The notes under the pieces: generated by a model
What the model was told of the DNA's origin: nothing
Databases searched by the model: none
What the model saw: only the letters and a program-made list of their open reading frames with translations
Part shown: positions 1-42,160 of the stretch, piece after piece
Layout: the number at the start of each line of letters is the position of its first letter
Position numbering within the stretch: position 1 is the stretch's first letter
Assembly (NCBI GenBank): GCA_964016885.1
Contig: CAXHJY010001023.1
Location: 1-44,186, forward strand
Origin: Eledone cirrhosa
Taxonomy: Eukaryota
Length of the DNA stretch: 44,186 bases
Direction of reading: 5' to 3'
Program-made: the position numbers and the translations under genes

Positions 1-632
1 TGGTAGGCTAATAGGGACAGAAATGAAGAAATATATGAGGATACAAAGGGGCATAAAATCATAGTCAATATACTATATTAAATAATAGAAAGGAGCGTAA
101 AAGAGGGGGGGGGATTAAATATAATCATAGTCTATTTGGAGGGGTTGAAAATAAGTTTATGTGCGCATGGGGGGGGGGGGGTATCCAAAGAAGAATCCGA
201 ATAAAATAAAGATAAAAATAAAAATAAAAATAAAAATAAAAATAAAAATAAAAATAAAATTAAATTAAAATTAAAATAAAAATAAAAATAAAAATAAAAA
301 TAAAATAAAATAAAATAAAATAATGTAAAATATATAATCAGATATATATTCATAAGGTGTTAATAGTGAAAATTTATGGTATAGTAGCCAAAAGATTATG
401 AGAGCTAGAATAAAGAGTCGTCAAAAACCAATGATAATAATGATGATAATAATGGTGGTAAACAAAAGAACCTAAACTAAAAAATAAGTAATGGAATATA
501 TCAGCTAATGGATACAATTTGTACTACTAGAACGTTTAGGTTTATAATAAAAGTATGAATTAGAAATAGCGTGGGGGCAAGAAGAGAATATCTCAGACTT
601 TCTATTAAGTAAGGATTCGCTAGAGAAAATTA
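1..632 (-). mobile_element. Penelope-like element fragment (GIY-YIG C-terminal tail + 3' UTR), same family as 26979-29368
   Basis: The minus-strand peptide IIFSSESLLNRKSEIFSSCPHAISNSYFYYKPK matches the + strand remnant near 27330-27430. The reverse complement of 1-632 aligns by eye with ~27325-27880. Confidence 0.85.
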
Positions 633-1569: not shown

Positions 1570-3027
<1,458 letters not shown>

Positions 3028-3030
<3 letters not shown>

Positions 3031-3534
3031 TTACAAACGAAACGAAATTTAATTTCGTTTCGTTATTTGTTTTTATCGTCTCCGCTGAACCGGTACGTAC
3101 TCACGCTCTATGCAAATTAGTCTGCCCACTACTAATTTTCATAGAAAAAGCATATAACGATATGTGCTTTTACGATTCTCTAGAAAGGCCGGAAGATAGG
3201 TAAATATTGCTGATGAGATGTAACAACATCGAAACTAGTCCAATATTCCTGTCTGGCTTTCTGGAGAATAGAGGAAAGGTGTTTCCTCGAAAACCAGTAT
3301 GACTCTAAAAACCGGTTTGTCTGTGTGTTTACATACAGAATAGCTGGACACTCACAGTCAAGTGTCCAGTGAAAAACTCGGTACATCTACATATGTACAC
3401 GTGTGTGTATTCATATGCATACTAGTATTTCAGTATACATATGTGGATGTACATTTTTAACTTAATTGTTTAAGCGTCAGTCATACAAAAGTGAGTTACA
3501 AACTAAACGAAATTTAATTTCGTTTCGTTATTTG

Positions 3535-3541
<7 letters not shown>
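3028..3541 (+). mobile_element. Non-LTR retrozyme-like element, subfamily A (465-nt monomer + ~49-nt terminal redundancy)
   Basis: gagttacaaac(g/t)aaacgaaatttaatttcgtttcgttatttgtttttat occurs at 3028 and 3493. One intact HHR inside, many hairpins, non-coding, flanked by (TA)n. Confidence 0.8.
3203..3247 (+). ncRNA. Type I hammerhead ribozyme (canonical core, GUC site)
   Basis: aatattg-CTGATGA-gatgt-aaca-acatc-GAAA-CTAG-TC-caatatt: 7-bp stem I, 5-bp stem II, palindromic minimal stem III (ACTAGT). Confidence 0.93.
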
Positions 3542-5069
<1,528 letters not shown>

Positions 5070-5366
5070 ATAAGTTGAAATAAAATGAAAACGAAATTTC
5101 ATTTCTCACTCTTAGTACGGCACTTACTTAAATGTAAGTATGTGTATATACGTACACACATATATGTATACAGACGTACAGTAGCATGCATATATATATA
5201 TATATATATACATACAGGTACACATACATATATGCACGTATCAGTTTAGAGGACGCTTATTATAACGCCGCTTTGTTCGTTTGTAAACAAACTGAACAGC
5301 CTGAATTTTTATGCCGTACGGTGTTAAGGCAACCACGTCACCTTTTTGTTCAACACTGACACAGGA

Positions 5367-5409
5367 ACGATGTACTAGTTTCAAGCTTGTTAGCTATCAT
5401 CAGCACCGT
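5367..5409 (-). ncRNA. Type I hammerhead ribozyme (GUA site)
   Basis: Minus strand reads acggtg-CTGATGA-t-agct-aaca-agct-t-GAAA-CTAG-TA-catcgt. Confidence 0.9.
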
Positions 5410-5663
5410 ATACCCATCTGCCAGATAGTTGAACGTTCGAAAGTATATACTTTCCTTATGAAAATTAACGGCTTAGCAGCCTAATTTGCATATCGAGTGA
5501 GCTAAGTCGGTCAGGCATACCGAAAACGATAACATACCGAAAACGATAAGTTGAAATAAAATGAAAACGAATTTCATTTCTCACTCTTAGTACGGCACTT
5601 ACTTAAATGTAAGTATGTGTGTATACGTACATACATATATGTATACAGACGTACAGTCGCATG

Positions 5664-5727
<64 letters not shown>

Positions 5728-6093
5728 CAGGTACACATACATATATGCACGTATCAGTTTAGCGGACGCTTATTATAACGCCGCTTTGTTCGTTTGTAAA
5801 CAAACTGAACAGCCTGAATTTTTATGCCGTACGGTGTTAAGGCAACCACGCCATGCATGCTACTGTACGTCTGTATACATATATGTATGTACGTATACAC
5901 ACATACTTACATTTAAGTAAGTGCCGTACTAAGAGTGAGAAATGAAATTTCGTTTTCATTTTATTTCAACTTATCGTTTTCGGTATTCCTGACCGACTTA
6001 GCTCACTCGATATGCAAATTAGGCTGCTCAGCCGTTAATTTTCATACGGAAAGTATATACTTTCTAGCGTTCAACTATCTGGCAGATGGGTAT

Positions 6094-6136
6094 ACGATGC
6101 TGATTATAGCTAACAAGCTTGAAACAAGTACATCGT
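6094..6136 (+). ncRNA. Mutated, probably inactive hammerhead copy
   Basis: acgatg-CTGATTA-tagctaacaagctt-GAAA-CAAG-TA-catcgt: core G8 changed to T and the stem III palindrome is broken. Confidence 0.8.
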
Positions 6137-6287
6137 TCCTGTGTCAGTGTTGAACAAAAAGGTGACGTGGTTGCCTTAACAACGTACGGCATAAAAATCA
6201 GGCTGTTCAGTTTGTTTACAAACGAACAAAGCGGCGTTATAATAAGCGTCCGCTAAACTGATACGTGCATATATGTATGTGTACCTG

Positions 6288-6335
<48 letters not shown>

Positions 6336-6388
6336 TGCTACTGTACGTCTGTATACATATATGTATGTACGTATACACAATACTTACA

Positions 6389-11722
<5,334 letters not shown>

Positions 11723-11856: not shown

Positions 11857-11960
11857 ATAAAATATTAAACAAATAATGAATAAACAATTTCTCATATTAA
11901 ACAAAAAATAATGAACTTTTTTTGTTTAATATAAGAAATTGTTTATTCATTATTTGTTTA

Positions 11961-12284: not shown

Positions 12285-12701
12285 TGTATATATATACTAT
12301 ATATAATATATATGTATATATATATATATATATGTATAATATTATATATATATATATGGTATACTATATATATATATATATATATATACTATATATATAT
12401 ATGTAAATATTTTTAAGTCGTTAGGAAGCCTCGACAATGCAAATGGGTAAATCTCGGGTAACAATGTCCGGTGGTGGAGAGAGTGTTGTAAGTTGAGTGT
12501 GTCTTGTGTGTTGTTTGTGTGTGTTGTTGCCTTGTTCATCTGTATTGGCAGTGTAGTATGTTCGTGTGGTGGAATGCTACTGTGTGTGTGTGCGTGTGTG
12601 TGTGTAGTTGTCTCGTTTGCGTAGTGTGTGTGTGCGTGTGTTGTTGCATCGCTTGTTAACTTAAACCAACCATTTCATTTCGCTTCTCTCTGATCGGTTG
12701 T

Positions 12702-13740
12702 TTATTTGCGGTTGCAGTCGTTTGATAAAAAGCGCTTCCTTGATACGTAACGTGCGACGTTTCTTTCAGTCGCTAGAATTGTGACAATGGGCCTTCCGTC
12801 TTTGTTTCCGCATTTGTCTATATGTTTCCGGAAAGACGAGGCCCTGGTTTTAGTGTGTTCCTTGATCCGGATGTGCAAAGGTCGAATTGTGCTACCTATG
12901 TAGTATTGGTTGCACCTGTCACATTCTATCTTATACACGACGTATGTGCGTAGGCAACAGTTAGCATGGCGTATCGGACAGTCTCTGAGGGAGCATGCGT
13001 CAGTAGAATTTTTCGGGTTTCCTGGAGAGGCATCTTCGCAGGGAGGGGCCCGAGTGGCCAGGTGGATGTCGAGGCCCTCCCTCCGTATAGCCTTGCGGAT
13101 AGCGTTGGTGGTTTTCTCGCCCAGGTGTGGCATTTTAAGGAAGCACTTGCCTTGGGTGCTTCTCTGTCTCTTGCGTCTGGTGTCTCCTATTCTGTCTGTG
13201 ATCGAGATAGGGTACCCGTTCGTCTCCAGCACCTCGAGGAATCGCTTGGTATGAGTGACACCACTCGCGGGATCGCTGCATCTGTTTTTGATTCGCGCGA
13301 TCTCGTTCGTGATGTATCCTCTTTTGGCACTGTTAGGGAGGGCGGACTTGTAGTGAACGAATAGGTCCCTGCAGGCTGCCTTTCTGTAGAAGTTGCAGTG
13401 GATCCCTCCTTGTTCCGTGATGTTGATTCGGAAGTCGAGGAGGGCAAGTGACCCGTCTTCGTTGGGGTGTTCAACACTGAAGTCAATGTTCTCGTCCGTG
13501 CTGTTGAACGTCTCATAGATTCTGTTCGCCGTGTCTTGGGAAGATGTGAGGATGAGGATATCGTCCACGTATCTTGAGAAAAAGGCTACGGCGTTGGGGT
13601 GGCAGGCGTTGAGTGCCTTGCGTTCGAGGTTGTCCATGTAGGAGATCGCTAGCACACCTGATAGGCTTGATCCCATGGGCAATCCCGAGGTTTGTTGGTA
13701 TATTTGGTCAAGGAATCCGAAGTAGGTGTTGTCGACGACG
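12702..13740 (-). pseudogene. PLE reverse transcriptase C-terminal half + GIY-YIG endonuclease (5' truncated)
   Basis: Motifs QQTSGLPMGSSLS, RYVDDI, LALLD and VVYKIECDRCNQYYIGSTIRPLHIRIKEH. The ORF-track N-terminus upstream of ~13740 is inverted-pLTR sequence. Confidence 0.9.
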
Positions 13741-14071
13741 CACACACACACAGTAGCATTCCACCATACGAACATACTACACTGCCAATACAGATGAACA
13801 AGGCAACAACACACACACACAACACACACACTCAAGCGAGACAACAACACACGCACACACACACACAGTAACATTTAACAAACAGGCAGAGAATGGACTG
13901 ACAGCTAGCGCCATCTCACTCCCTCATTCGGCACTGACCTCTGTACGACCAACCCCATTTCACGCGCACGCGCGCTCTGCCGAATACCTCAGATATTCAA
14001 AACAACAAACAGCGAAAGACGCATTCCGGACTTGTCCGACAGACAACCTTTTCCCCCACCCCGGAAAAAAA

Positions 14072-14107
14072 CCCCAGTTGATGGATGTGAATCCGAAATA
14101 TATAGGG
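14072..14107 (+). ncRNA. Variant or degenerate hammerhead-like motif in the inverted pLTR
   Basis: ccc-CAGTTGA-t-ggat-gtga-atcc-GAAA-TATA-TA-ggg followed by ATTAAA. The core differs from CUGANGA at two positions. Confidence 0.45.
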
Positions 14108-14410
14108 ACTATTAAATCTCTCCCAAGGTAACTCTCTCTTGTGTTGTTATTTTTATTTTTATCCTTTATACTCTTCCCTTCATTCTACACATCTCACACA
14201 TCTTATACACACCACGCATCTGAACGTACACCCACTTACATCTCTCTCTCTCCACCACCGGACCTTGTTACCCGGAGATTTACCCATTTGCATTGACGAG
14301 GCTTCCAAACGACTTAAAGATATTTACTTATTGTTCCACAATGCTTCAAGCAAACTTCAATACTCTGATATATATATATATATATATATATGTATATTTT
14401 AATATAGATG

Positions 14411-14461
14411 AGATTCTACAGGACTAGAACTGTTTCATTCTTTAGAAATCATCAGGAATCT
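14411..14461 (-). ncRNA. Type I hammerhead ribozyme (inverted pLTR copy)
   Basis: Reverse complement of 19243-19293. Confidence 0.88.
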
Positions 14462-14661
14462 GGGTATCAAAATAATGTGAGTACCTCTTACCTATCTGCA
14501 TTTTTCTGCCTGTAGAGCTGTTTTTATGTGCCTGTGTATATGCGTATATTTATTGAGTACTTATTTATTTGTATGTGTATATATCTGTGTGTATGTTTGT
14601 ATATGTATGTGTATGTATATGTATGTGTATGTATGTGTATGTGTGCACGTGTATATGTGTA

Positions 14662-18857: not shown

Positions 18858-19242
18858 CATATGTGTGTATGTATGTGTGTGTATGTATATATATATATAT
18901 ATATATATTTTATATGTGTGTGTGTATATATGTGTATATGTGTATGTGTTTATGGGTGCGCGCGAGTGTGTGAGTGAGTGTGTTTTGTGAATGTGTCTGT
19001 TGATTTTTGGCATATAGTTGTCTAGTTTAAGAGAAATTTGAGGATAATTGTAAGATATGCAATCAATATTTTGAATTTGTCTACAGAATTCTCTAAACCT
19101 TTGTCACTTAGTAGAACCTTAAAGAATTTAGCTTTTAATGAATTCCCTTTTCTATCAACCAATGACCTATACCCATCCCACTCCCCACCCTCTCCCACCA
19201 CTTGTAGAGACCTATAAATACCAAACTTATTTTTTGATGCCC

Positions 19243-19293
19243 AGATTCCTGATGATTTCTAAAGAATGAAACAGTTCTAGTCCTGTAGAATCT
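19243..19293 (+). ncRNA. Type I hammerhead ribozyme in PLE pLTR
   Basis: agattc-CTGATGA-t-ttct-aa-agaa-t-GAAA-CAG-ttctagtc-CTG-TA-gaatct. TATAAATA at 19213 and ATTAAA at 19301. Confidence 0.9.
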
Positions 19294-19423
19294 CATCTAT
19301 ATTAAATCTGTTATACTCTGCAATGTATTGAGTACCTTACTTACTGTGGTTACCTCCGATTCAACCCGGAATAACGTACCTTTTAGCATTTTATGTGCCC
19401 CTTATAACCATCATCAATAAACC

Positions 19424-21522
19424 ATGCTGACCAAACTCTACCTTGATATTTCCATGAAGAACATCCCTATCCCTCCAAGGAAACTATACCTAAAAACACT
19501 CATCAGACGTACCGACGAGTTCATCACGCGAATTAGATGGACGGCCTTCTTCCTCGACATCCCTGATGTAGCATCTACCAATGATGAGAAGTTCGGCTTC
19601 AAAACGAATAAGAAACCACCCACCAACAGCCTACTCCAACCATTTGAAGAAGACCTCTTCAAGATGATCAAAGATATTAAATTCCGTAGAGCCACCACAC
19701 CATTCCATGCCTACTTAAATGCCGAATTGCGGAATATAAAAAAATCCCCTAATCTTTATGTCTCCTCCGATAAAACCAAAAACGTTTATGAGGTAGACCC
19801 ACAGACCTACAATAAGCTGGCAAAAAATGCCATCACGACCACCTACAAAAAGGTAATAGAGATGGCACTGACTGAGACAAACGCGGCCGGAAAAGAAATC
19901 GCCAAGTCCCTTAAATTGCACGACCGAACTGAACCTTTAAGGGTAAAGACCCCGCACTTTACCCTGAAGGACCATAAGGGAAACTTCCTCAACAAACCAT
20001 CAGTCAGACTTATCAACCCCACTCGTTTTGACATCGGCTCTATCAGTAAGAAGATCCTGGATAGAGTTCTACCATCATTGCGGGCTGCCTCACCACTTCC
20101 ACTCTGGAACAGAACATCTGAGGCAATATCATGATTCCAAGAATTACCCGACAAATACCACACTTGCTTCCTGCAACTCGACATAGAAAACTACTATGCC
20201 TCTATCTCGGAGCCCCTCCTGAAGAACGCAATTAACTTTGCCAGGAATTTTACCACCATTACCGATGCTGAGCAAGTTGTTATCCTCCACGCTCGTAAGA
20301 CCTTTCTATACCACGATGGATCTTACTGGATCAACAAGAAATCTCAGACCCCATTTGACGTTAGCTTGGGAGCGAGTGACTCGGCTGAAATTAGAGACCT
20401 TGTGGCCTTGTACATCCTACATCACCTGAAGAACCTCTTTACCGGCCTAACCGGAGGTTTATACTGAGATGACGGCCTCTTTGCCCTGCATAAGTTTAAC
20501 CCCAGAACCACCGATGGGTTTCGGAAAAACTTAAGCTCATTCTTCTCTAATCTAGGATTTAGTTTAACTATAGAATCTAATTTGACTAGGGCCAACTTCT
20601 TAGATGTCACTCTCGACCTAGATACTTCCCTCTATTACCCGTACCACAAACCTAACGAGTCCCTTAGATATATTAATGTTAATACAAACCACCCCTAAAA
20701 CATCACTGATAACCTAGTAAAAAGCGTCTCTATTAGAATATCTGGCCTCTCCGCCAACAAAGATATTTTTAACGCATCTGCCTCCTACTACAATGACGCC
20801 CTCGCCCGCAGCGGATTTAAAGAAAAGATAACATACCTAGAGACCACAGCAAGATTGCAGAGGAGGAATAGACATAGGCAGATTAGCTGGTACAACCCTC
20901 CCTTCAATAGAGAGGTCTCTACACCGAAAGCTAGAATTTTCTTCACTTTGCTGAAATTACACTTCCCCATACAACATAGGTACCACACCATCTTTAATAA
21001 GAACACAATAAGACTCTCCTAATCCACCACACCTAACCTAGCTAGGAATATAGCCAATCACAATTCTAAAAAATTAAATAAGCCAACCACCTCCGAACCC
21101 AATCCCCAGACTGGGGCTCTGTGTAATTGCCTAAATAAGGAAGCATGCCCACTTGAAAACAAATGCCTCACAAATGATATCGTATACAAATGCGATGTCA
21201 TCTCAGGCACCGATGATTGCAAAAAAACTTACATCAGCATGACCTCAAACAACTTTAAGACCCGTTGATATGCGCATACCCACTCCTTCAGAAGACCGGA
21301 CAAATCAAACCAGACAACACTCGCCTCCTATGTTTGGGACATCAAAAGGAACTCCACCCCTTCACGCTTAAATGGAAAATACTCCAGAAAGCGCGCTCTT
21401 ACAACGGAGGACACAAGGGCTGCGACCTTTGTATCTCAGAGAGCTACGAAATTTTATTCGTCAAGGGCACGCTACTGCCCGAACTGCATGCACAAGAACT
21501 TTGCAACTTTCAAACACTTTAA
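19424..21522 (+). pseudogene. PLE ORF (RT + C-terminal GIY-YIG) with several premature stops
   Basis: KNIPIP N-terminus, DKTKNVY, KPSVRLINP, QLDIENYY, GLY*DD, NFLDVTLDL, WYNPPF, CNC..CPL..KC...IVYKC, CDLCISE. Stops near 20132, 20465, 20696, 21019 and 21266. Confidence 0.9.
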
Positions 21523-21770
21523 GCCAGTGTTAAAGCCCGATGGTTAAAACGACCTCCTCCTATTGGCCGCTATACCTCCTTCCCACCCTACACCCACCCA
21601 CCCCTCCACAACCTGACATACGGCCACTATGGTTATGTGAGTACCTCTTACCTATCTGCATTTTCTGCCTGTAGAGGTGTTTTTATGTGCCTGTGTATAT
21701 GCGTATATTTATTGAGTACTTATTTATTTGTATGTGTATATATTTGTGTGTATGTGTGTATATGTATGTA

Positions 21771-23921
<2,151 letters not shown>

Positions 23922-24023
23922 GAAAATATTCTGTATGTTTATAATAAACATTTTGAAGACCTAATCGCTATAGAATAGAATACGTCACGTATTACAATTA
24001 GATTCTCGATAAAAGCAAGGGAA

Positions 24024-25306
24024 GTAATCTACGCGTTTCATTCTCGTTAGAAATCATCAGGACTACATATCCAGTGCTTTTATCGAGAATGACACAGCTA
24101 GAGACTTATAGAATACTTAGCTGTGTACAGGAACTGGTTTGAAAGAGCGGTTGCCGGTCCGGCAGAAATTAGAAATTGGAATAAATGCTCTGAAATAGCG
24201 ATATATATGTGAATATAGACATAGAATATTCGAAAATATTCTGTATGTTTATAATAAACATTTTGAAGACCTAATCGCTATAGAATAGAATACGTCACGT
24301 ATTACAATTAGATTCTCGATAAAAGCAAGGGAAGTAATCTACGCGTTTCATTCTCGTTAGAAATCATCAGGACTACATATCCAGTGCTTTTATCGAGAAT
24401 GACACAGCTAGAGACTTATAGAATACTTAGCTGTGTACAGGAACTGGTTTGAAAGAGCGGTTGCCGGTCCGGCAGAAATTAGAAATTGGAATAAATGCTC
24501 TGAAATAGCGATATATATGTGAATATAGACATAGAATATTCGAAAATATTCTGTATGTTTATAATAAACATTTTGAAGACCTAATCGCTATAGAATAGAA
24601 TACGTCACGTATTACAATTAGATTCTCGATAAAAGCAAGGGAAGTAATCTACGCGTTTCATTCTCGTTAGAAATCATCAGGACTACATATCCAGTGCTTT
24701 TATCGAGAATGACACAGCTAGAGACTTATAGAATACTTAGCTGTGTACAGGAACTGGTTTGAAAGAGCGGTTGCCGGTCCGGCAGAAATTAGAAATTGGA
24801 ATAAATGCTCTGAAATAGCGATATATATGTGAATATAGACATAGAATATTCGAAAATATTCTGTATGTTTATAATAAACATTTTGAAGACCTAATCGCTA
24901 TAGAATAGAATACGTCACGTATTACAATTAGATTCTCGATAAAAGCAAGGGAAGTAATCTACGCGTTTCATTCTCGTTAGAAATCATCAGGACTACATAT
25001 CCAGTGCTTTTATCGAGAATGACACAGCTAGAGACTTATAGAATACTTAGCTGTGTACAGGAACTGGTTTGAAAGAGCGGTTGCCGGTCCGGCAGAAATT
25101 AGAAATTGGAATAAATGCTCTGAAATAGCGATATATATGTGAATATAGACATAGAATATTCGAAAATATTCTGTATGTTTATAATAAACATTTTGAAGAC
25201 CTAATCGCTATAGAATAGAATACGTCACGTATTACAATTAGATTCTCGATAAAAGCAAGGGAAGTAATCTACGCGTTTCATTCTCGTTAGAAATCATCAG
25301 GACTAC
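24024..25306 (-). ncRNA. Five identical minimal type I hammerheads (24024-24066, 24334-24376, 24644-24686, 24954-24996, 25264-25306)
   Basis: Minus strand reads gtagtc-CTGATGA-t-ttct-aacg-agaa-t-GAAA-CGCG-TA-gattac. Confidence 0.9.
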
Positions 25307-25464
25307 ATATGTCTATATTCACATATATATCGCTATTTCAGAGCATTTATTCCAATTTCTAATTTCTGCCGGACCGGCAACCGCTCTTTCAAACCAGTTC
25401 CTGTACACAGCTAAGTATTCTATAAGTCTCTAGCTGTGTCATTCTCGATAAAAGCACTGGATAT

Positions 25465-25817
25465 GTAGTCCTGATGATTTCTAACGAGAATGAAACGCGT
25501 AGATTACTTCCCTTGCTTTTATCGAGAATCTAATTGTAATACGTGACGTATTCTATTCTATAGCGATTAGGTCTTCAAAATGTTTATTATAAACATACAG
25601 AATATTTTCGAATATTCTATGTCTATATTCACATATATATCGCTATTTCAGAGCATTTATTCCAATTTCTAATTTCTGCCGGACCGGCAACCGCTCTTTC
25701 AAACCAGTTCCTGTACACAGCTAAGTATTCTATAAGTCTCTAGCTGTGTCATTCTCGATAAAAGCACTGGATATGTAGTCCTGATGATTTCTAACGAGAA
25801 TGAAACGCGTAGATTAC
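25465..25817 (+). ncRNA. Two identical minimal type I hammerheads (25465-25507, 25775-25817)
   Basis: gtagtc-CTGATGA-tttctaacgagaat-GAAA-CGCG-TA-gattac, with palindromic stem III ACGCGT. Confidence 0.9.
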
Positions 25818-25974
25818 TTCCCTTGCTTTTATCGAGAATCTAATTGTAATACGTGACGTATTCTATTCTATAGCGATTAGGTCTTCAAAATGTTTATTAT
25901 AAACATACAGAATATTTTCGAATATTCTATGTCTATATTCACATATATATCGCTATTTCAGAGCATTTATTCCA

Positions 25975-26642
<668 letters not shown>

Positions 26643-26899: not shown

Positions 26900-27027
26900 A
26901 TATATATATATATGTGTGTGTGTGTATATATGTGCATGTATGTGTATATATGTATATATATATATATTTATATATATATTATGAAATTAAACCAAAGAAG
27001 CCTTCAATACATCAAAAGTCTTTATTA

Positions 27028-27065
27028 GCCAACAATGTTTCGTCCTATTAAGGACTCATCAGGGC
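27028..27065 (-). ncRNA. Minimal type I hammerhead (inverted copy)
   Basis: Minus strand reads gcc-CTGATGA-gtcc-ttaata-ggac-GAAA-CATTG-TT-ggc. Confidence 0.87.
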
Positions 27066-28842
27066 AAGTAAAGTTATAAGAAGCACTATCGGCCAATACA
27101 AGCCAAAAACTCAGAAGAATATGGAGTATACATACATTAAAACATAGGAAAATTATCAAGTAAAGATTATCAAGTAAAAATTGCTATTCTACTTCTTTAG
27201 CACACCATATCTGGGATCTTAAGGGGGCTAATATACCATATAGCCTTAATTGGCGAATAGTAGCACGCTCTAATAACCTATCAACGCACACTAAATTCTG
27301 TAATCTCTGTATCCTTGAGACCCACTCTATAATTTTCTCTAGGGAACCCTTACTTAATAGAAAGTCTGAGATATTCTCTTCCTGCCCCCACGCCATTTCT
27401 AATTCTTACTTTTATTATAAACCTAAAAGTTCTGGTAGTGTAAATTGTATCCATTATCTGCTATATTCCCTTATCTTTTTTGTTTAGGTTCATTTTGTTT
27501 ACCACCATCATTATCATTATTATTATTGGTTTTTAACAGCTTTTCGATCTAGCTTTAATAGTCTTTTGGCTACCATACCATATCTATCTTCTTAAATATT
27601 ATATTTCCACTATTAACACCTTATGAGTTTATATCTGATTATATATTTTATTTTATTTTATTTTATTTTATATTATTTTATTTTATTTTATTTGTATTCT
27701 CATTTAGATAATTAACCCCCCCCCCACACACTTGTCATTCGCCCCTTCAATTATACTATAATTATATTTAATTCCCTTGTATGCTCCTTTCTATTGTATA
27801 ATACAGTATATTGATTATGATTTTATGCTCCTTCGTATCCTCCATACCTTTCTTTTTTCTGTCCCCATTGGCCTACCATAGTTCTATTTAAAGTCCGTTT
27901 ATTAGATAACGTTATTCAACTGATAGTAGAATATTTCATTCTATTCTGGATATTTTTATTGAGATATCTTAAACATTGGAGATTTTGATTACTTAAACCA
28001 TAGCTAATTTTGTATTGACTTATTATGTATTTTAAATACTTTCAATAATAATTAATTTAATAGGGTTTTCTAGTCATTTATCCGGGTTTGATTCCTAATT
28101 TTTTTACTTAACTGCTTGTGACACCTAAGTAAATATATTTGTTTTTGTTTTTCGATTTCCGGTTGATTTTATTTATATTTTTTTTACTACCGTGCGTAGT
28201 TTCTGTCTGGTTCTTACTCACTTATTCACATATGTCTGTCTACCAACCATGTAATTATGTATATTATACTATGTTTATTATTTGATATTGAAGTTGTTAT
28301 ATCATATCACTCAATGTAATTGTACTATAGATGTTAAATATTTACCGATTATTCGATGTACCCTTATGTTAAATTTTGTAAATTCTGTAATATGTTTATA
28401 TTTTTATAATTTGTGTAATGTTTAGATAATATTTATTTATACCAATTGTATAAAAACTTGACCTCCGTCTGTTTTCTTACAACGGTATAGATATTTTTCC
28501 AGCACAATTTTTTCAACACAATTTAGTTCTGTATGATATTTTTTTCTCACCTTGTGTGTAACTTTATATGATTTGTTAAGTTATATGCCAATGTATTATA
28601 ATATTGTTATTATAGTGTTATTGTAATATTTATATTGTTTGTGCAAATTGACCGGAGATTATAAATTATATAATTATATAGTATATTATATATTATATGT
28701 TTACTTTTACTCATTTCTTTATCATTTTATACTGTAAATAATATATGTATTATATTTTTATTTTTATTCATATTTAAACTCTTAATAAGTTTTAGTTTGT
28801 ATTGATGGATATGTGTATTGATATATATATATATGTGTGTAC

Positions 28843-28882
<40 letters not shown>

Positions 28883-29180
28883 TGGGCCTTTTAATATTAT
28901 TATTACTATCATTATTAATTATATTATATTATATTATATTATATTATATTATATTACATATAGTACTGTAATTCTCGCTTTATATCACCACTTGTGTTTA
29001 GTTTTAGTTTTTGCATTGTACTATATTTGTAATATGGTTCAAAATGTTATTCACTTCCTTAGCAATTTTTACTTGATAATCTTTACTTGATAATTTTCCT
29101 ATGCTTTAATGTATGTACACTCCATATTCTTCTGAGTTTTTGGCTTGTATTGGCCGATAGTGCTTCTTATAACTTTATTT

Positions 29181-29218
29181 GCCCTGATGAGTCCGTAATA
29201 GGACGAAACATTGTTGGC
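29181..29218 (+). ncRNA. Minimal type I hammerhead (GUU site)
   Basis: gcc-CTGATGA-gtcc-gtaata-ggac-GAAA-CATTG-TT-ggc followed by AATAAA. Confidence 0.88.
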
Positions 29219-29365
29219 TAATAAATACTTTTGATGTATTGAAGGCTTCTTTGGTTTATTTTCATAATTCTTCGGCTCTGTATAATTACATTGAGCTATA
29301 CCTTTACTGTCATTTCTATAATATGAAGAGGGTGTTTAACTCCAACACACTCTAGTATTTTAATT

Positions 29366-29601: not shown

Positions 29602-32555
29602 TACTATTTTACTCTTTTACTCTTTTACCTGTTTCAGCCATCCGGCTGAGGCCATGCTGGGGCACCACCCTTGTTGCTACACATTTTATCTCCAGTCTGT
29701 ATAGGTTGGCCACTGGTGTAAGAGGGAGTTTGTTGCTGCTGCCCTTAGGTTTCCCTCGTGTCTTGCTGTGGGCTCATCCGGGATCCTTGATAACAAGGTG
29801 TCGAGATGTTTCTTAAAGACATCCACCTCCACGTCATGTAAGTCTCTCAGATGCCTCGGCAGCCTGTTGAAGTGATGAGGGCCCTTGAATCCAAGGCTAT
29901 TGCAATACCTGCTCCTTATTCTAGATGTGGAAAACGGGACCTTTGGCACCACACAGTGACGTCCTGTTCGACGGTTGGTCCAGCTCCCAATGCCAAAGTT
30001 TGGTGCTAGTCCCTCCAGGATTTTCCACATGTAGATCACTGCGTATCTCTCCCGTCTTCGCTCCAAGGAGTAGAGGTTCAGTTCCTTCAGCCTCTCCCAG
30101 TAGCTTGTCTCCCTCATCTTGGCAATCCTCTTGGTGTAGCTTCGCTGGATTGCCTCAAGCTCCGTGGTTAGTTTGACACTATGGGGTGACCACAACTGGG
30201 AGCACTAGTCCAGGCGGTTTAGGACAAAAGTCCTCCACAGTGTCAACATGGTGTCTCGATATCTTGTCCGCAAAGTCCTCAAGATCCAACCAGCGAGTTG
30301 TCTGCACATTGTCGCCACGTTCATGATGTGTGAAGAAAAAGATGCATCTACGCTCATGTCTATGCCCAGGTCTCGTATCGATTTTGACACGGGGATATCG
30401 GTCCCTCCTGGTCCTGTGTTCCACTATATTTGTGTGTGCAGGTTTGTATTGTAGGGCTTGGAATTTGCCAGCATTAAACTGCATGTTGTTTTCTTCCGCC
30501 CATCTGTATATGGCATCCAGATCCTGCTGTAAAAGGGCAGCGTCAGCCGGGTTTTTGATTGCCTGTGCTACCTTAGTGTCATCAGCATAGCTAGTGAGGC
30601 ATGTTGTTGCATGCACCACAGAGGGCATGTCCGAGAGAGCCACCAAAAACAGTAGCGGTCCCAGGACTGTCCCATGGGGCACCCCACTTGTTATCGGTGT
30701 TTCTCTCGCGAGGGCCCCATTTGCTGCGACTGCCTGGCTTCTGTCCCCTAGGAAGCCATGCAGCCACTCACCTACTTTTCCAGTTATGCCGAGTCCGTGT
30801 AGTTTGTGACATATCATTCCGTGGTCGACCTTGTCAAAGGCCTTCGCAAAGTCAAGATATATCACGTCCACATGTGAGCTGTCTAGTAGTTGTCTCAGTA
30901 CCCAATCGTAGTGATGTAGCAGCTGTGTAAGGCAGCTTCTTCCTGGGCGGAATCCATGTTGCGTGCTAGTCAGGCGGTCATTTTTTTCGAGGAAAGTGAT
31001 TAGTTTCTTTCTGACGACTCGCTCCATGACCTTACTGAGATGCGACGTCAGGGAGACTGGCCTATAGTTCTTGGCCTCCGCTCTACTACCTCCTTTATGG
31101 ATAGGGCATATTGTGCCTTCTTTCAGCTCCCCGGGTAGTACACCGCTAGCAAAGGAGCTTCTGAAGAGCACCTTCAGTGGAGTTGCTAAGGCCCGCTTAC
31201 ATATTTTTAAGAGAACTGCTGGGAATCCATCAGGTCCAGCAGCCGAGTCTGTTCTAATTTCATCAATGGCGTACACCACATCCTCCTCCGTTATGTCTAT
31301 GTGGTTGATGGTTGCCATTTCTTGATGTAGTGTTGTGGCATCAAAGAACTCCTCTGGCTTCGTTATTTGCATGTGCCTCAGTGGACATGTGAAGACACTT
31401 TTGTACTGTTCGTTCAGTATTTCACATATCTCTTAGGCGGTTTTCGGTTAATGAACCGTCCGTGTGGAAGAGTGGCCCAATCTTGCAGTGTACTGAGGCA
31501 GTTTCTTTTGCAAATTTAAAGAAGGCCTTAGGGTTTGTTTTAATGTTTTCTATGGCCCTGTTCTCTTTCTTTGCCCTCTCGTTCTCATGTGAAAGTTTGA
31601 GTGCAATCTCGGTGTCAAGTAGTGCACGTTTCAAATAGGATTCCTTCTTGTTTTTGTTTTGTTGACTATTCAACTGGTTTGAGAGTTTAGTTCTACGTCT
31701 CATAAGGATTTTCCTATCTCTGGGAATAAGATTTTTGTGTCTGTTTGCCTCTTTCTCCGGGACACACTTTTTGCATATAGTGTGTATCGTTGTCATGAAG
31801 TGTTGAAATTGTGTGTTAGTGTCTTGTGTGGCGGCGTTTTTACTCCATGTTTGCTTCCGGATTTCACTCTTAATCTTTTTCCAGTTAGCCTTGTAGAAGT
31901 TAAGGCTGGATAGCGTCCCGGAGCTTCTTGGTGGTTTTGTCTCTATTGGTTCTCTTGGACCACATATCATTAGCTCTGCTAAGTTATGATCCGAGAGAAT
32001 TGTTGGTGTCAGCTTTACATTGTGGATGAGCACTTCGTTGTTTGTAAAACAGAGGTCCAGGACATTTTCGCCTCTTGTTGGGCGAAAACCAACCAAAGGC
32101 CATTTGACCTTTGGTTGGTTGAAGTCTCCCAGCAGTAGGATGTTGAGACCCTGGTCCAGTTTTTCAAGGACCTCTTCTATCCTACTTAGGCTATCCTCAA
32201 ATTTACCCTCATGACTGGGAGCATCGGGCGGCCGATACGTGACACATATCACTGTCTGTAGTTACTTCATATGTATTATCAGTGTGTCACAGACTGAGTT
32301 TGAATGTGTCAACAGTACAATTGGTGTGACATCTTCACGGATATACAGAGAAAACCCACCATGAGTTCTCTCCTTCCTGTCCGAACGAAATACAGTATAT
32401 TTCGGTATATGTATTTCTGCATCTGCTATACTGCTTGTCAGGTGCGTTTCGGTTAGTGCCATGCATAGTGCTTGATTGCTTATGGCTAAGTCTCCCAGGT
32501 AGGAAATTTTACTCATGTTACTGAGTTTCACCAGGCCCCTGACATTCAGCATTAT
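29602..32555 (-). mobile_element. CR1-group LINE ORF2 (APE endonuclease + RT), decayed, with 3' tail (GTAAAAGA)n
   Basis: APE motifs LNVRGL, LTETHL, RSDR, YRPP, GDFN, PTRGENVLDL, SDHN. RT motifs NYRPVSLTS, QHGF, YLDFAKAFDKVDH, SGVPHGTVLGP, YADD. C-terminus YWERLKELNLYSLERRR. Stops, frameshifts and an apparent internal deletion in APE. Confidence 0.9.
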
Positions 32556-34020: not shown

Positions 34021-34180
34021 ATGTATATATATATGTATATATATGTATATATATATATATGTATATATATATGTGTATATATATATGTATATATATATAT
34101 GTATATATATATGTATATATATATATGTATATATATATATATAGAAAGATTTGAATGGATACAGTTTAGTTGAAAGGAAT

Positions 34181-34300
34181 TTATTGACACGTGTTTCTAT
34201 AACAGTTACAGAACCTAAAACAGCTGCTATCTACAAACTTTTAGTTATGCAGACATTCAATATTTCAATGTTATTATTTACTGTCATTTCATCAGAATAA
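34181..34300 (-). ncRNA. Extended-stem-II hammerhead (inverted copy, canonical CTGATGA)
   Basis: Reverse complement of 40018-40137 with few differences. Confidence 0.75.
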
Positions 34301-34862
34301 TATTACTGAGGACCTACTTAGTTTTTATAGAGAATATTAGGAGCGAGGGGTGAAGTTGTTAGAAGAATAGTTGAAGGAGTGGTTTTTCGATAGCAGTGAG
34401 AATTCTTGGTGGCAGTGAGTAATTAGATTCCCATCTGTTGTTTTGACATTTTTTATAGAATATATTATTGGTTATTTTTCTAAATCTATAGAAGGATTAG
34501 AGATAGAAAAGATATGCGTGGTTGGTTTTGTGTTTGCACTTAATTAACATTCAGACTTAAATTTTTCTTTCAAGTGTACGTATCCTTTCACCCACGCATT
34601 CACACACAAATATATTTGCACACCTCTACAAAATACATATACTCACAATTCACATATTCATACTTACATATATATACACATGCATACACATATATATACA
34701 CACATGTATTCATGTACATACATACGCGCTCATGTGTATACATTTTCATACTCAACTTATCTTTATATACACACGTATAGACACACACATATATACATAC
34801 ATACTCTAGTCCATGTGTACACACATACACATACATACACATCTATATACACATATATACAT

Positions 34863-34918
<56 letters not shown>

Positions 34919-35368
34919 ATATATATATATATAAGCACTTTAATACATGAATACACTTACATCTAACTATACACATCAAACATATATATATATATTTACT
35001 TATTTATATACATTTTCACATATATATACATACTTATGGACGTTTTTAGACACATTCATTATCGCATATTTGCACCTATTCTCATCAGCATATCTTTCCA
35101 TTATTAGTGTGGTAATTTAAGGTTATTAATATATGTTGAGAAGAGATTGTTTTTATATTTTTCTAACTAGATTAAGGTTTATATAGTTGGGGGATGTCCC
35201 TCTTTTATGTAATAGTCGGCTTGTAGTGGGAAAAAAGGGTTTTAGATCTGTGACGGCAGAATAATGTTCGTTCAATTCTGTTATTCAGCAGTTTCTTCTT
35301 GTGTGTGATTATGTAATAAATCTCAAGATTACACAATTTGCAAAAATTTTGGCTCCTGGAAAAGCTTT

Positions 35369-37046
35369 ATATCTTAGATAGAATCATCCCCCAAATTAAG
35401 GTTAAGGTTAACATTAAACTCTGGGGGAAGACCCAAGAAGCAATAAGATGGTTTAATAGCATTAGCAATAAGAATAAATCTAAGCTTATCCAGTTTGATA
35501 TCGATGAATATTACTCATCGATATCACCTGAAACTTTGAATAGAGCCATTAAGTTTGCTAAGGATAACTCTGACCTTACAAACGATGAAATTAAGATTAT
35601 ATTAGAAGCTAGGAAAACTATAGTCAAATTTGAGAACAGTTATTGGGTACGTAAAGATAGACCCTCTAACTTTGACATAACAATGGGCTCTAACGATTCG
35701 GCGGAAATAACTGATATTGTGGGGTTATTTATCGCCTTTAGACTCCAGGAAAAATTCAGCAATCTCCACGGCGGAATATACCGCGACGATGTTCTCCTAG
35801 CTAAAAACCTTAATAACCAAAAACTAGAAAAACTACGCAAAGATATAAGAAAACTACTACTCGAAATAGGACTAACTATAACATATGAATACAACCTTAA
35901 AGTAGTTAACTTCCTGGATGTCACACTCAATTTAAACTCTGGTTTGATTAAACCGTTTCATAAATTGAATGAAAATCTCAAATACGTAAATGTTGGGTCT
36001 AACCACCCCATCTCTATAATTAAATCTATCCCTAAAAATATTTCCCTTAGAATCTCGGGTCTATCTTCTAACATACAAGTATTTAAGGAACACACCGAGT
36101 ACTACGATAACGCCCTTAGTAAAGCAGGCTACCTCAACAAAATAGAGTACATAGATGGGAACAATCAAAACACCCAAAATAAATCCCACATAGGTAGATA
36201 TAATAACACAACACCAAACCACACTTACTACCATAGTATGCACATCAGTAAACCAACAAACAAAACTAATAGAAAGCGATGCAAAGAGTACTTATGGTAT
36301 AACCCCGAATACAATAGTTCCATTAGTACAAATTTTCCAGTACTCTTCTTTAAAATAATTAAAAGACATTTTCCCACATCACACAAATACCACAAAATCC
36401 TAATCCCTACCACTATGAGACTGTCATACTCTACAGCGTTAAACCTTGAACAACACATAAAAAAGATCAATACTAGAAGGTTAAACGAAAACACTAAGAA
36501 CTTAAGTACAAAGAACACAAAAAAAAAACAGTAGACAATACACTACAGAACATAAATAAACCACACCTAAGTTCGTCCGCAATACTACTCCAGAGAAAAC
36601 CCAACGTACACAATTGTAACTGCACCTATCCTGACAACTGCCCCCTCGGCAATAACTGCCTGGAAAAAAATATTATTTATAAGTGTACCATTAAATCCGG
36701 AGGCAACGAGTGGTATTACGTGGGATCAACGGCAACATCGTTTAAATCTCGATTATATAGGCATTCTTACTCAATAAAACACCAGAGCCAAAGAAATGTA
36801 ACAACTTTAGCAGAAAAAGCTTGGACGCTCAGGGATAGCGATCAAAAGTTTACCCTAAAATGGGAGAAATTAGCTAAAACCCAAAGCTTTTCCAGGAGCC
36901 AAAATTTCTGCAAATTGTGTAATCTTGAGATTTATTACATAATCACACACAAGAAGAAACTGCTGAATAACAGAATTGAACGAACATTATTCTGCCGTCA
37001 CAGAACTAAAACCCTTTTTTCCCACTACAAGCCGAATATTACATAA
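35369..37046 (+). pseudogene. PLE RT + GIY-YIG, 5' truncated, single frameshift in the A10 run at 36519-36528
   Basis: QFDIDEYY, ITMGSNDSAE, GIYRDD, NFLDVTLNL, WYNPEY. After the shift: CNCTYPDNCPLGNNCLEKNIIYKC...YYVGSTATSFKSRL. Confidence 0.9.
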
Positions 37047-37317
37047 AAGAGGGACATCCCCCAACTATATAAACCTTAATCTAGTTAGAAAAATATAAAA
37101 ACAATCTCTTCTCAACATATATTAATAACCTTAAATTACCACACTAATAATGGAAAGATATGCTGATGAGAATAGGTGCAAATATGCGATAATGAATGTG
37201 TCTAAAAACGTCCATAAGTATGTATATATATATGTGAAAATGTATATAAATAAGTAAATATATATATATGTTTGATGTGTATAGTTAGATGTAAGTGTAT
37301 TCATGTATTAAAGTGCT

Positions 37318-37370
<53 letters not shown>

Positions 37371-37439
37371 AAAAAGGGATGAAATCGAAAATGCAACTGA
37401 AGTCTTATTTTTTTAAAAAATATATATATTTATTTGGTT

Positions 37440-37477
37440 CCTTTACCGGTTTCGCAGTTCTTCTGCTTTTCAAAAGG
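37440..37477 (-). ncRNA. U3-A8 variant hammerhead (inverted copy)
   Basis: Reverse complement of 39227-39264. Confidence 0.75.
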
Positions 37478-37689
37478 TGAGTTGAGATGGAGGGTCTGTG
37501 GTTTTTCTCACATCTGGTTGGTCTCTAAATGTTACTTGTTTTATATGGAAAAAGTGGCTCGAAAACCAGGTTTTTCGAGAAGTAATTTGATTGGGTTGTC
37601 AATAATTATAATAAATTTCGCGCCAGTTCGCGTTACAATAGTTCTTCAAATAAGAGAGGGGGGGGGGGGTTGTTACAGGTTGTTTTTTC

Positions 37690-38190
37690 ATAATAATCAA
37701 AATAATCAAAAGCAAAAGACAACCAAAATCACTGAAAACATTACTCACCAATGCCAAATTACCTACCACAAACCCACAACCAAGTATCAAAAAATGTGGT
37801 CGCTCTAATTGTGGAACCTGCACTCACCTCATTGAAGGCAACACGTATACATTTAAATCAGGACAAAATTTTACTGTAAAAAATCACTTCACTTGCTCAT
37901 CAAAAAATCTACTTTATGCCATTAAATGTAAAGGATGCAATAAAGCTTATATAGGACAAACTAAACTCACACTCAGAAACAGAATGACAGTTCATCGCCA
38001 ACAATTACGAGATCCAACCACGAGACAGATACCACTAAGTGCACATCTAGACATTTGCGCAAGTAATAAGACACCCAAATTCCAAGTCTTCCCATTTTAC
38101 CTTTGCGCTAACAATACAACAGAACAAATGCGAATAAATAAGGAAAATATGTTTATTCAAAAATATAGACCAACATTAAATAAGGTTTAA
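37690..38190 (+). pseudogene. Cys-rich linker + GIY-YIG endonuclease of a Neptune-like PLE
   Basis: SKRQPKSLKTLL..CGRSNCGTC..FTCSSKNLLYAIKCKGCNKAYIGQTKLTLRNRMTVH..KENMFIQKYRPTLN. Confidence 0.85.
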
Positions 38191-38659
38191 TATACATTAT
38201 GTCAACACCACAATATGACATACACACACACACACATAACACCTTCTACTTTAGAAAATAAAAACCCGAACTAAATAAACCTTAAACATACGTTTGCACT
38301 GGCAATACAATAGCAAACACGAAAAAGTCAGGAAAATATGTTCATTCAAAAATATTCCTACTAAAGGAATCATTTTCCTACACACACACATACACACACA
38401 CACAATATATATATATATATATATTCTCTTCATCTTAACATGCTAACCATACTCCCACACACATAACACCCATACACACACATAACAACCCCCACACCTA
38501 CAACACCCTCCCCATTTCTACTAATAGAACCACTTTCCTACACACATATATATATACACACACACAAAATATATATTCTCTCTATCTAACATACTCGCAC
38601 ACACACACATAACACACAACTCCCTCCCCCATCTCTACTAATAGAATCATCTTCCAATA

Positions 38660-38714
<55 letters not shown>

Positions 38715-39226
38715 GCACACAAATAAACACATATCTTCAGTCTCAATAGAAAATCTGAACTCTGACACCTGAACTCTGACAGCTGGCCATATTCACTGAA
38801 CCAGAACATTTCTCCCAATCCCTTTTCCCTTGACCACTATCTCTCCATTGTCATAACATTCACTATAAAGACTACAGAATAGTTTTCCAAATAAGGGCGC
38901 AAAAATGTAATGAAAACTTGTTCACGTGACAGCCAAATTTCATTTATAACCAACCAAAAAAAAAGCCTTCGTGAGCCTCATTTTTTCAAGTAAAAAGAAA
39001 TTCAAACACTCATATATGAAAAAAACAACCTGTGACAACCCCCCCCTCTCTTATTTGAAGAACTATTGTAACGCGAACTGGCGCGAAATTTATTATAATT
39101 ATTGACAAACCAATCAAATTACTTCTCGAAAAACCTGGTTTTCGAGCCACTTTTTCCATATAAAACAAGTAACATTTAGAGACCAACCAGATGTGAGAAA
39201 AACCACAGACCCTCCATCTCAACTCA

Positions 39227-39264
39227 CCTTTTGAAAAGCAGAAGAACTGCGAAACCGGTAAAGG
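39227..39264 (+). ncRNA. Type I hammerhead with compensatory U3-A8 core
   Basis: cctt-TTGAAAA-gcag-aagaa-ctgc-GAAA-CCGG-TA-aagg followed by AATAAA. Confidence 0.78.
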
Positions 39265-39395
39265 AACCAAATAAATATATATATTTAAAAAAAAAATAAG
39301 ACTTCAGTTGCATTTTCGATTTCATCCCTTTTTCTTTATACTTCCACTCGTGTAGGACACCTCGGTTATTTTTCATTTTGTAAAAAGAACCTCAC

Positions 39396-39461
<66 letters not shown>

Positions 39462-40017: not shown

Positions 40018-40137
40018 TTATTCTGATGAAATGACAGTAAATAATAACATTGAAATATTGAATGTCTGCATAACTAAAAGTTTGTAGATAGCAGCTGTTT
40101 TAGGTTATGTAAGTGTTATAGAAACACGTGTCAATAA
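40018..40137 (+). ncRNA. Extended-stem-II hammerhead (canonical CTGATGA, GUC site)
   Basis: ttatt-CTGATGA-aatgac...gttata-GAAA-CACGTG-TC-aataa. Confidence 0.75.
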
Positions 40138-42082: not shown

Positions 42083-42160
42083 TCACCAAAAGATGTTATA
42101 TTTAATGTTTTTGTCTTTTAAGGACCATATGAGTTCTGAGAGAGCAGTGTTAGTTTTTTT
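42083..42160 (-). pseudogene. Tiny PLE GIY-YIG fragment from another family
   Basis: [25 protein letters not shown] is homologous to TTLAEKAWTLRDSDQKFTLKW and STSLAHHIWDLKGANIPYSLNW. Confidence 0.7.

What the first reader, a model, noticed from the sequence alone, without database searches (positions are those of the whole stretch)
5070..6388. Retrozyme-like arrays show the same inversion as PLE insertions
Both multimeric non-coding arrays switch orientation internally (at ~5852, and at 25308-25310 with a 3-nt TAT microhomology). The coding PLEs here likewise carry an inverted pLTR piece at the truncated 5' end (junctions near 13740, 14476, 27186, 35368 and 37691). Inverted pLTRs are an established PLE feature. 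Finding the same geometry in the non-coding arrays is sequence-level support for mobilisation in trans by PLE machinery (inference).
Basis: partly seen in the sequence, partly recalled or inferred. Interest (0 to 1): 0.75.

Follow-up and report, generated by a model that had tools for sequence, protein, structure and literature searches.

The report
Head-to-head hammerhead retrozyme insertions
Short non-coding repeats carrying a self-cutting RNA motif sit in TA microsatellites as two arms joined head to head, the same pattern left by neighbouring Penelope-like jumping genes, which supports the already proposed idea that those genes' enzymes paste them in.

Summary
Array A (5070-6389) and array B (23916-25976) are type I hammerhead tandem repeats (non-LTR retrozymes), each with one orientation switch. 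In ribozyme sense both are head-to-head, with RNA 3' ends pointing out into (TA)n, like the five PLE-derived inversions listed. The arms are asymmetric, so these are not mirror chimeras. Raw reads of the same species label show 12 other distinct head-to-head junctions in family A, 8 of them in both individuals. The one tail-to-tail joint shown is an AATT ligation artefact; 331 joint rows were hidden. The window's own junction A was not recovered, and B was not tested. All 5 retrozyme 3' ends carry 2-4 nt AT microhomology (chance about 0.23 each). B's ribozyme matches a neighbouring Hydra-type PLE's over 26 nt. Best reading: a PLE enzyme primes twice, from both nicked target strands, on circular or multimeric retrozyme RNA (0.68). 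The geometry alone is not PLE-specific, because L1 twin priming gives it too. The PLE-helper idea is already in print; I found no report of this junction anatomy.

The parts
5070..5850 (-). Array A left arm, about 1.6 units of a ~465-nt retrozyme monomer; RNA 5' end at the junction, 3' end in (TA)n
5365..5411 (-). Type I hammerhead of the left arm: intact core, 6-bp helix I, U.U at base of helix II, short helix III; predicted cut after 5373
   Evidence: Rfam HH9 E 0.048, below gathering
5516..5549 (-). 17-nt tandem duplication in the left arm, at the monomer position where the arm's own 3' end also falls
   Evidence: sequence, alignment
5851..5853 (.). Head-to-head junction of array A, 0-1 nt overlap, no long palindrome
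5853..6389 (+). Array A right arm, about 1.1 units; 3' end in (TA)n
6092..6138 (+). Hammerhead of the right arm, with substitutions at 6105 (core) and 6126 (helix III) that nearly all family reads lack
3027..3541 (+). Copy C: non-inverted 1.1-mer, homologous to A along the whole monomer, ~50-nt terminal direct repeat, hammerhead 3202-3248
   Evidence: Rfam HH9 E 7.8e-05, below gathering
23916..25310 (-). Array B left arm, 4.5 identical 310-nt units, 5 hammerheads
25308..25310 (.). Head-to-head junction of array B, 3-nt microhomology
25308..25976 (+). Array B right arm, 2.2 identical units, 2 hammerheads; starts at monomer position 117, while the left arm's outer end is at 114
12411..14368 (.). 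PLE (RT + GIY-YIG, minus strand) with inverted arm from ~13740; the inverted arm has a ~40-nt 3' extension and ~400 nt absent from the main arm
14398..14568 (.). Non-coding head-to-head fragment of the 19232-21727 PLE family; arms share no sequence; hammerhead in the inverted arm
19232..21727 (+). Hydra-type PLE (RIRW, DKT, CxCX5C motifs; decayed ORF); its hammerhead (core at 19249) matches array B's over 26 nt with one 2-nt gap
26979..29364 (.). 5'-truncated PLE with inverted pLTR, junction 27186
34144..37320 (.). 5'-truncated PLE, junction 35368; the inverted arm runs ~800 nt past the main arm's 3' end
37367..39400 (.). 5'-truncated PLE (GIY-YIG) with inverted 3' piece, junction 37691

Best explanation
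The arrays are non-LTR retrozymes copied into DNA in trans by the RT/GIY-YIG protein of a Penelope-like element, most plausibly a Hydra-type family for array B. The enzyme nicks both strands of a (TA)n tract. Each free 3' end pairs through 2-4 bases with an internal AU stretch of a circular or uncleaved multimeric retrozyme RNA and primes a cDNA that can run past one unit. The two cDNA 3' ends are joined through 0-4 nt of microhomology and filled in, which leaves a head-to-head insertion with both RNA 3' ends facing out. Shown: anatomy, polarity, end microhomology, recurrence in family A, ribozyme similarity. Inferred: the helper's identity, double priming, RNA circularity, cleavage.
For: 2 of 2 arrays and 5 of 5 listed PLE junctions are single, head-to-head switches. 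5 of 5 retrozyme 3' ends and 3 of 5 testable PLE 3' ends have at least 2 nt AT microhomology; null 0.16-0.26 per end. No poly(A) or repeat tail, whereas the window's two LINEs have their own tails. In reads, table 5 shows 5 head-to-head joints away from AATT sites and 0 tail-to-tail ones; table 5c adds 7 more distinct ones. B and the local Hydra-type PLE share 26 ribozyme nt, chance about 6e-4 after allowing for the core. In 3 of 5 PLE inversions the inverted arm holds sequence missing from the main arm, so both arms need an RNA template. A PLE protein cleaves and extends both target strands, prefers AT-rich DNA and initiates internally in vitro (PMC11167929). Hydra families insert in (TA)n (PMC8557442 section 11).
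Against: Junction A was not seen in the reads: at 5851, 183 of 183 (X21) and 234 of 234 (X22) reads carry the ordinary monomer base, and contig depth was filtered to zero at 5855-5899. Junction B was not tested. No A or C homology to any local pLTR beyond low-complexity sequence. 26% of the window is pure TA run and both LINEs also abut microsatellites, so the target is weak evidence. Copy C is not inverted. 172 + 159 joint rows were hidden, so the polarity count is partial. [quoted passage not shown] No RNA data.
Confidence: 0.68

Rival explanations
1. PLE machinery, but the second arm arises by self-priming or fold-back (a cDNA hairpin, or an antisense template) rather than a second target-primed event.
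For: Proposed for head-to-head PLEs with junction palindromes (PMC3846280 Discussion). Periodic arrays cannot exclude it; B's arms are identical and its junction has a small 8-nt palindrome.
Against: Best local hairpin stems at the 7 junctions are only 3-6 bp. In 3 of 5 PLE inversions one arm cannot be a copy of the other. Both outer ends carry AT microhomology, as primed ends would.
Confidence: 0.12
2. LINE (RTE- or CR1/L2-type) twin priming on a multimeric or circular retrozyme RNA.
For: L1 machinery inverts 18-22% of L1 insertions and 13% of processed pseudogenes (PMC12016303). In B the left arm's outer end (monomer 114) abuts the right arm's start (117), as one-template twin priming predicts; chance about 0.045. 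Two LINEs lie in the window.
Against: No LINE-like tail on any retrozyme end and the 3' ends vary. Adjacency holds in 1 of 2 arrays only. 0 of 2 window LINEs show an inverted piece of their own (small n, and upstream parts were not available as query). Alu and SVA are almost never inverted. B's ribozyme resembles a PLE's.
Confidence: 0.1
3. Inversions arose later at the DNA level (template switching or breakage in fragile (TA)n and tandem DNA), or two opposite insertions became adjacent.
For: TA-rich, rearranged neighbourhood; a convergent junction of two endonuclease fragments at ~42085.
Against: An internal inversion gives one junction of each polarity; here each array has one head-to-head switch and no TA remnant at the junction. 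B's units are all identical, leaving little time. Shown read joints are one-sided.
Confidence: 0.06
4. Fold-back chimera or assembly artefact at junctions A and B.
For: Junction A not recovered in 4 runs; junction B untested; B's arms are 100% identical.
Against: A's arms differ at 10 of 312 aligned positions. Junctions join different monomer positions, and flanks and outer ends do not mirror. Equivalent junctions recur in two individuals at single-locus depth. The runs are probably other individuals: best word share 0.51.
Confidence: 0.04

Closest known systems
Metazoan non-LTR retrozymes (Cervera and de la Pena 2020, PMC7229834; passages and Discussion read, supplement not readable)
   Same: Non-coding tandem units with one type I hammerhead each, low GC, well-folding circle, co-occurring with PLEs; U.U at the base of helix II as in HHR_Amex2.
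   Different: A and C monomers (~465 nt) exceed the 170-400 nt given there. Internal head-to-head inversion and (TA)n targeting are not mentioned in the main text (0 hits for inversion, orientation, head-to, microsatellite). RNA circles and cleavage not tested here.
Retrozymes as non-autonomous PLE derivatives (Li, Clavereau and Pollet 2026, bioRxiv 10.64898/2026.07.22.740005; parts 1-3 of 5 read, supplements not seen)
   Same: Same conclusion on the helper; pLTR similarity, here limited to the 26-nt ribozyme match of B.
   Different: Their evidence is co-occurrence and pLTR phylogeny in vertebrates, and they favour local amplification for the arrays. No junction analysis (0 hits for inversion, orientation, junction). 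Here the evidence is insertion anatomy.
PLE insertions with an inverted 5'-truncated copy and 30-40-bp tail (PMC8557442, PMC3846280; passages and named sections read)
   Same: Head-to-head polarity, 5' truncation, (TA)n targets, unequal 3' ends.
   Different: No ORF; both arms multimeric; no long palindrome at the junctions.
L1 twin priming (PMC12016303, passages; Ostertag and Kazazian 2001 seen only as a reference)
   Same: Two oppositely oriented cDNAs primed from the two target strands.
   Different: No poly(A)-primed arm; arms overlap in template sequence; TSD not scorable in (TA)n.

Membership tests
Non-LTR retrozyme | Tandem non-coding units of a few hundred nt | tested here: met
   310-nt and ~465-nt periods; no ORF of 120 aa or more in the units other than microsatellite read-through
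Non-LTR retrozyme | One type I hammerhead per unit | tested here: met
   Motif scan with helices I-III: 7 of 7 cores in B, 1 intact and 1 mutated in A, 1 in C. Rfam gives only sub-threshold HH9 hits for A and C and none for B
Non-LTR retrozyme | [quoted passage not shown] 'active' criterion) | tested here: inconclusive
   Met by B; not met by A (one ribozyme per arm, one mutated) or C
Non-LTR retrozyme | High copy number, dispersed | tested here: met
   Family A: 107,947 of 12.5 million reads laid in X21, many sequence variants; B not tested
Non-LTR retrozyme | Stable self-paired circular fold | tested here: met
   Circular MFE -144, -68, -151 kcal/mol against shuffles -96+/-5, -48+/-5, -94+/-8 for A, B, C (30 mononucleotide shuffles)
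Non-LTR retrozyme | Expression as linear and circular RNA; self-cleavage | not testable with these tools
   No RNA holder listed
PLE-mobilised element | Inverted 5'-truncated copy adjacent at the 5' end (head-to-head) | tested here: met
   2 of 3 retrozyme insertions in the window; further joints in reads
PLE-mobilised element | Insertion in (TA)n / AT-rich targets | tested here: met
   6 of 6 outer boundaries of A, B and C abut (TA)n; weak, as 26% of the window is TA run
PLE-mobilised element | Homology to a pLTR of an autonomous PLE | tested here: inconclusive
   B: 26-nt ribozyme match only; A and C: none among 15 window regions beyond low-complexity sequence; no genome available
PLE-mobilised element | Trans-mobilisation by PLE protein | not testable with these tools
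   Needs an in vitro or cell assay
LINE-mobilised SINE-like element | 3' tail or 3' end shared with a LINE | tested here: not met
   Five 3' ends are internal monomer positions running straight into (TA)n; no similarity to the window's LINEs in self-BLAST

The most novel reading that the evidence does not exclude
Retrozyme arrays record the PLE integration reaction without the confusion of pLTRs. A PLE dimer primes from both strands of a (TA)n cut on one circular RNA, rolling-circle fashion, and hands the template from the first to the second primer (array B: 669 nt + 1395 nt, 2 nt apart in register). That would explain the long-unexplained inverted pLTRs of PLEs without antisense self-priming, make animal retrozyme arrays single-event insertions rather than locally amplified satellites, and point to a conserved hairpin in families A and C as the RT initiation signal.
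Probability: 0.3. Interest if true: 0.75.

Novelty: new variant of a known kind. Interest (0 to 1): 0.52.

Why it matters
Which enzyme moves animal retrozymes has been argued from co-occurrence and pLTR likeness. Junction anatomy is a more direct, countable signature that can be tallied in any long-read genome. How PLEs make their inverted repeats is itself stated as open (PMC8557442). A 310-nt non-coding circle gives a minimal substrate for the existing in vitro PLE assay and separates two-primer from self-priming models.

Tried and rejected
No whole genome is held, so no assembly-wide tally. The first self-BLAST timed out on microsatellites and was redone masked. Rfam over the window is swamped by microsatellite miRNA matches. 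The A ribozyme pattern has 0 matches in metagenome contigs. The B/PLE pattern has 1 match, L001, an intergenic 24-nt hit in an unrelated, phage-like contig, discarded. Massive loose ends at 5820-5821 and 5949-5950 and joints 5945>6037 and 5947>5821 first looked like a short sub-element. They fall on the stretch's AATT sites and are not prominent in the contig runs, so I treat them as restriction-ligation chimeras and dropped those 2 rows. The other 8 of 15 rows in table 5 are the normal monomer continuation, its variants or deletions. The ~400-nt difference between PLE1 arms is not a clean intron. B-type register adjacency is absent in A. Similarity of A to a PLE 3' region is low-complexity only. 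Earlier-finding look-ups by place, sequence and a six-word query returned nothing.

Full report
Setting. The window is eukaryotic DNA in which 26% of bases lie in pure TA runs, with retroelements inserted among them. No genome is held. The evidence is the window, one read-laying run and the literature.

Observation. Masked self-BLAST and exact extension confirm both switches. Array A has a left arm 5070-5850 and a right arm 5853-6389. Array B has arms 23916-25310 and 25308-25976 with a 3-nt overlap and 100% identical units. A motif scan finds type I hammerheads on the minus strand of both left arms and the plus strand of both right arms, so RNA 5' ends meet at the junction and 3' ends face out. 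The five PLE-side junctions are real and have the same polarity, which is also the usual one for PLEs (PMC3846280 Discussion). The 14398-14568 piece is non-coding. By my count 5 of 10 PLE-derived pieces that I could delimit are inverted, as are 2 of 3 retrozyme insertions; copy C (3027-3541), homologous to A over the whole monomer, is not.

Artefact? A mirror chimera would join a position to itself and mirror the flanks. Neither junction does, local hairpins are only 3-6 bp, and A's arms differ at 10 of 312 positions. I laid four runs of one species label (2 contig sets from one sample, 2 RAD read sets from two other samples) on 5735-6163, which holds one monomer split at the junction. The normal monomer continuation appears as the expected strand-change joint (9,288 and 9,301 reads), a positive control; its minor variants have 70-280 reads, which sets the single-locus scale (inference). 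The window's own junction was not seen: all 183 and 234 reads at 5851 carry the ordinary base, and contigs were filtered next to it. With a best word share of 0.51 these are probably other individuals, so this is inconclusive. Junction B was not tested.

Other junctions. In this reference a same-strand skip from the left part to the right part is a head-to-head inversion. Of 15 rows shown in table 5 (172 hidden), 5 are such joints, each in both individuals at 74-120 and 73-107 reads, four with 2-4 nt ambiguity. One row is tail-to-tail and one is a same-part skip, both at AATT sites where library molecules end, and I dropped them. The remaining 8 are the normal continuation, its variants or deletions. 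Table 5c (12 rows shown, 159 hidden), which I read as same-strand joints with inserted letters, adds 7 distinct joints after merging one with a table 5 row. That gives 12 in all, 8 shown in both individuals. The joined positions are too far apart for short hairpin fold-backs, and the two parts share only a 20-nt low-complexity stretch away from the joints. Many joints have a single read start, as RAD data would, and both samples belong to one study. So the inversion recurs in family A with one-sided polarity among shown rows; a rate cannot be given.

Ends. All 5 retrozyme 3' ends overlap the flanking TA run by 2-4 nt, as do 3 of 5 testable PLE ends, against a null of 0.16-0.26 per end; for five retrozyme ends that is about 6e-4. 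The ends fall at internal monomer positions, none at the ribozyme cut, and there is no tail. B's arms cross 5 and 2 intact cut sites, so the template was a circle or an uncleaved multimer (inference). A's left arm and copy C end at the homologous base, 5-15 nt after a hairpin conserved between two diverged subfamilies. Contig loose ends at 5955 (69 and 76 contigs, trending to T- and TA-rich sequence) may reflect ends there, or only T-run indels. In B the left arm's outer end (monomer 114) and the right arm's start (117) are nearly in register, chance about 0.045; A shows no such register.

Which helper? B's hammerhead matches that of the neighbouring PLE at 19249 over 26 nt with one 2-nt gap; counting only letters free of core constraints gives about 6e-4 over nine comparisons. 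That PLE has RIRW, DKT and CxCX5C motifs, fitting the Hydra clade, whose families insert in (TA)n (PMC8557442 section 11). A and C match no local pLTR. A purified PLE protein cuts and extends both strands of AT-rich DNA, starts internally near a stem-loop and mostly uses uncleaved RNA (PMC11167929, parts 1-2 of 4); it did so without homology to the target, unlike the short overlaps here. In 3 of 5 PLE inversions the inverted arm holds sequence that the main arm lacks, which needs two RNA-templated cDNAs rather than a fold-back. Against specificity: L1 twin priming also gives two opposed cDNAs (PMC12016303, passages; same polarity is my inference), and both LINEs here abut microsatellites, though neither shows an inverted piece.

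Prior art. PLEs were named the likely helpers in 2020 (PMC7229834, passages and Discussion), and a 2026 preprint argues it from co-occurrence and pLTR phylogeny (parts 1-3 of 5). Neither main text mentions inversions or orientation, nor did passages of two reviews (PMC7761336, PMC11722881). 'retrozyme' with 'head-to-head' gives 0 papers, and searches showed no report of inverted retrozyme arrays in their listings. The 2020 supplement could not be read, the preprint's supplements were not seen, and subscription papers are not searched, so either could show such copies.

Verdict. Real, recurrent and best explained by PLE-driven double priming (0.68; about 0.8 for a PLE helper by either route). 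It adds a junction-level line of evidence to an existing hypothesis and a testable handle on PLE inversion. Interest 0.52.

Noticed in passing
window 29610-34009, junction 32553/32554: A 5'-truncated CR1/L2-like LINE (minus strand, cut at the start of its endonuclease) abuts head to head a 5'-truncated PLE fragment (plus strand); both 3' ends lie in (TA)n. It could be a mixed-template two-primer insertion, or a LINE inserted at a PLE's TA border.
   Followed up: partly
window 42040-42156: Two GIY-YIG fragments of different Hydra-like PLEs meet tail to tail at ~42085, both cut at their 3' side; probably a deletion between convergent copies.
   Followed up: partly
window 5474-5481, 6012-6019 and 3108-3115: An octamer motif ATGCAAAT is conserved between retrozyme subfamilies A and C upstream of the hammerhead. 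From memory, newt satellite 2 uses snRNA-type promoter elements including this octamer; not checked.
   Followed up: no
window 5516-5549: The 17-nt duplication in array A starts at the same monomer position as the outer 3' end; a possible template jump or self-insertion mark.
   Followed up: no
window 5976-6165: The right arm of A carries a cluster of private, mostly transversion changes around its ribozyme, where the left arm matches the family majority; the arms may come from different RNA molecules.
   Followed up: partly
window 11866-11960: 95-nt near-perfect palindrome at the edge of a unique island in (TA)n; unidentified.
   Followed up: no
window 1-626 and 1290-1577: Older relatives (72-83% identity) of the PLEs at 27186-29364 and 37691-39400.
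   Followed up: no
window 34232-34295, 40023-40086, 37163: The PLE family at 35368 has a degenerate hammerhead core in its 3' UTR and a second hammerhead-like motif with long loops in its ~800-nt extension.
   Followed up: no
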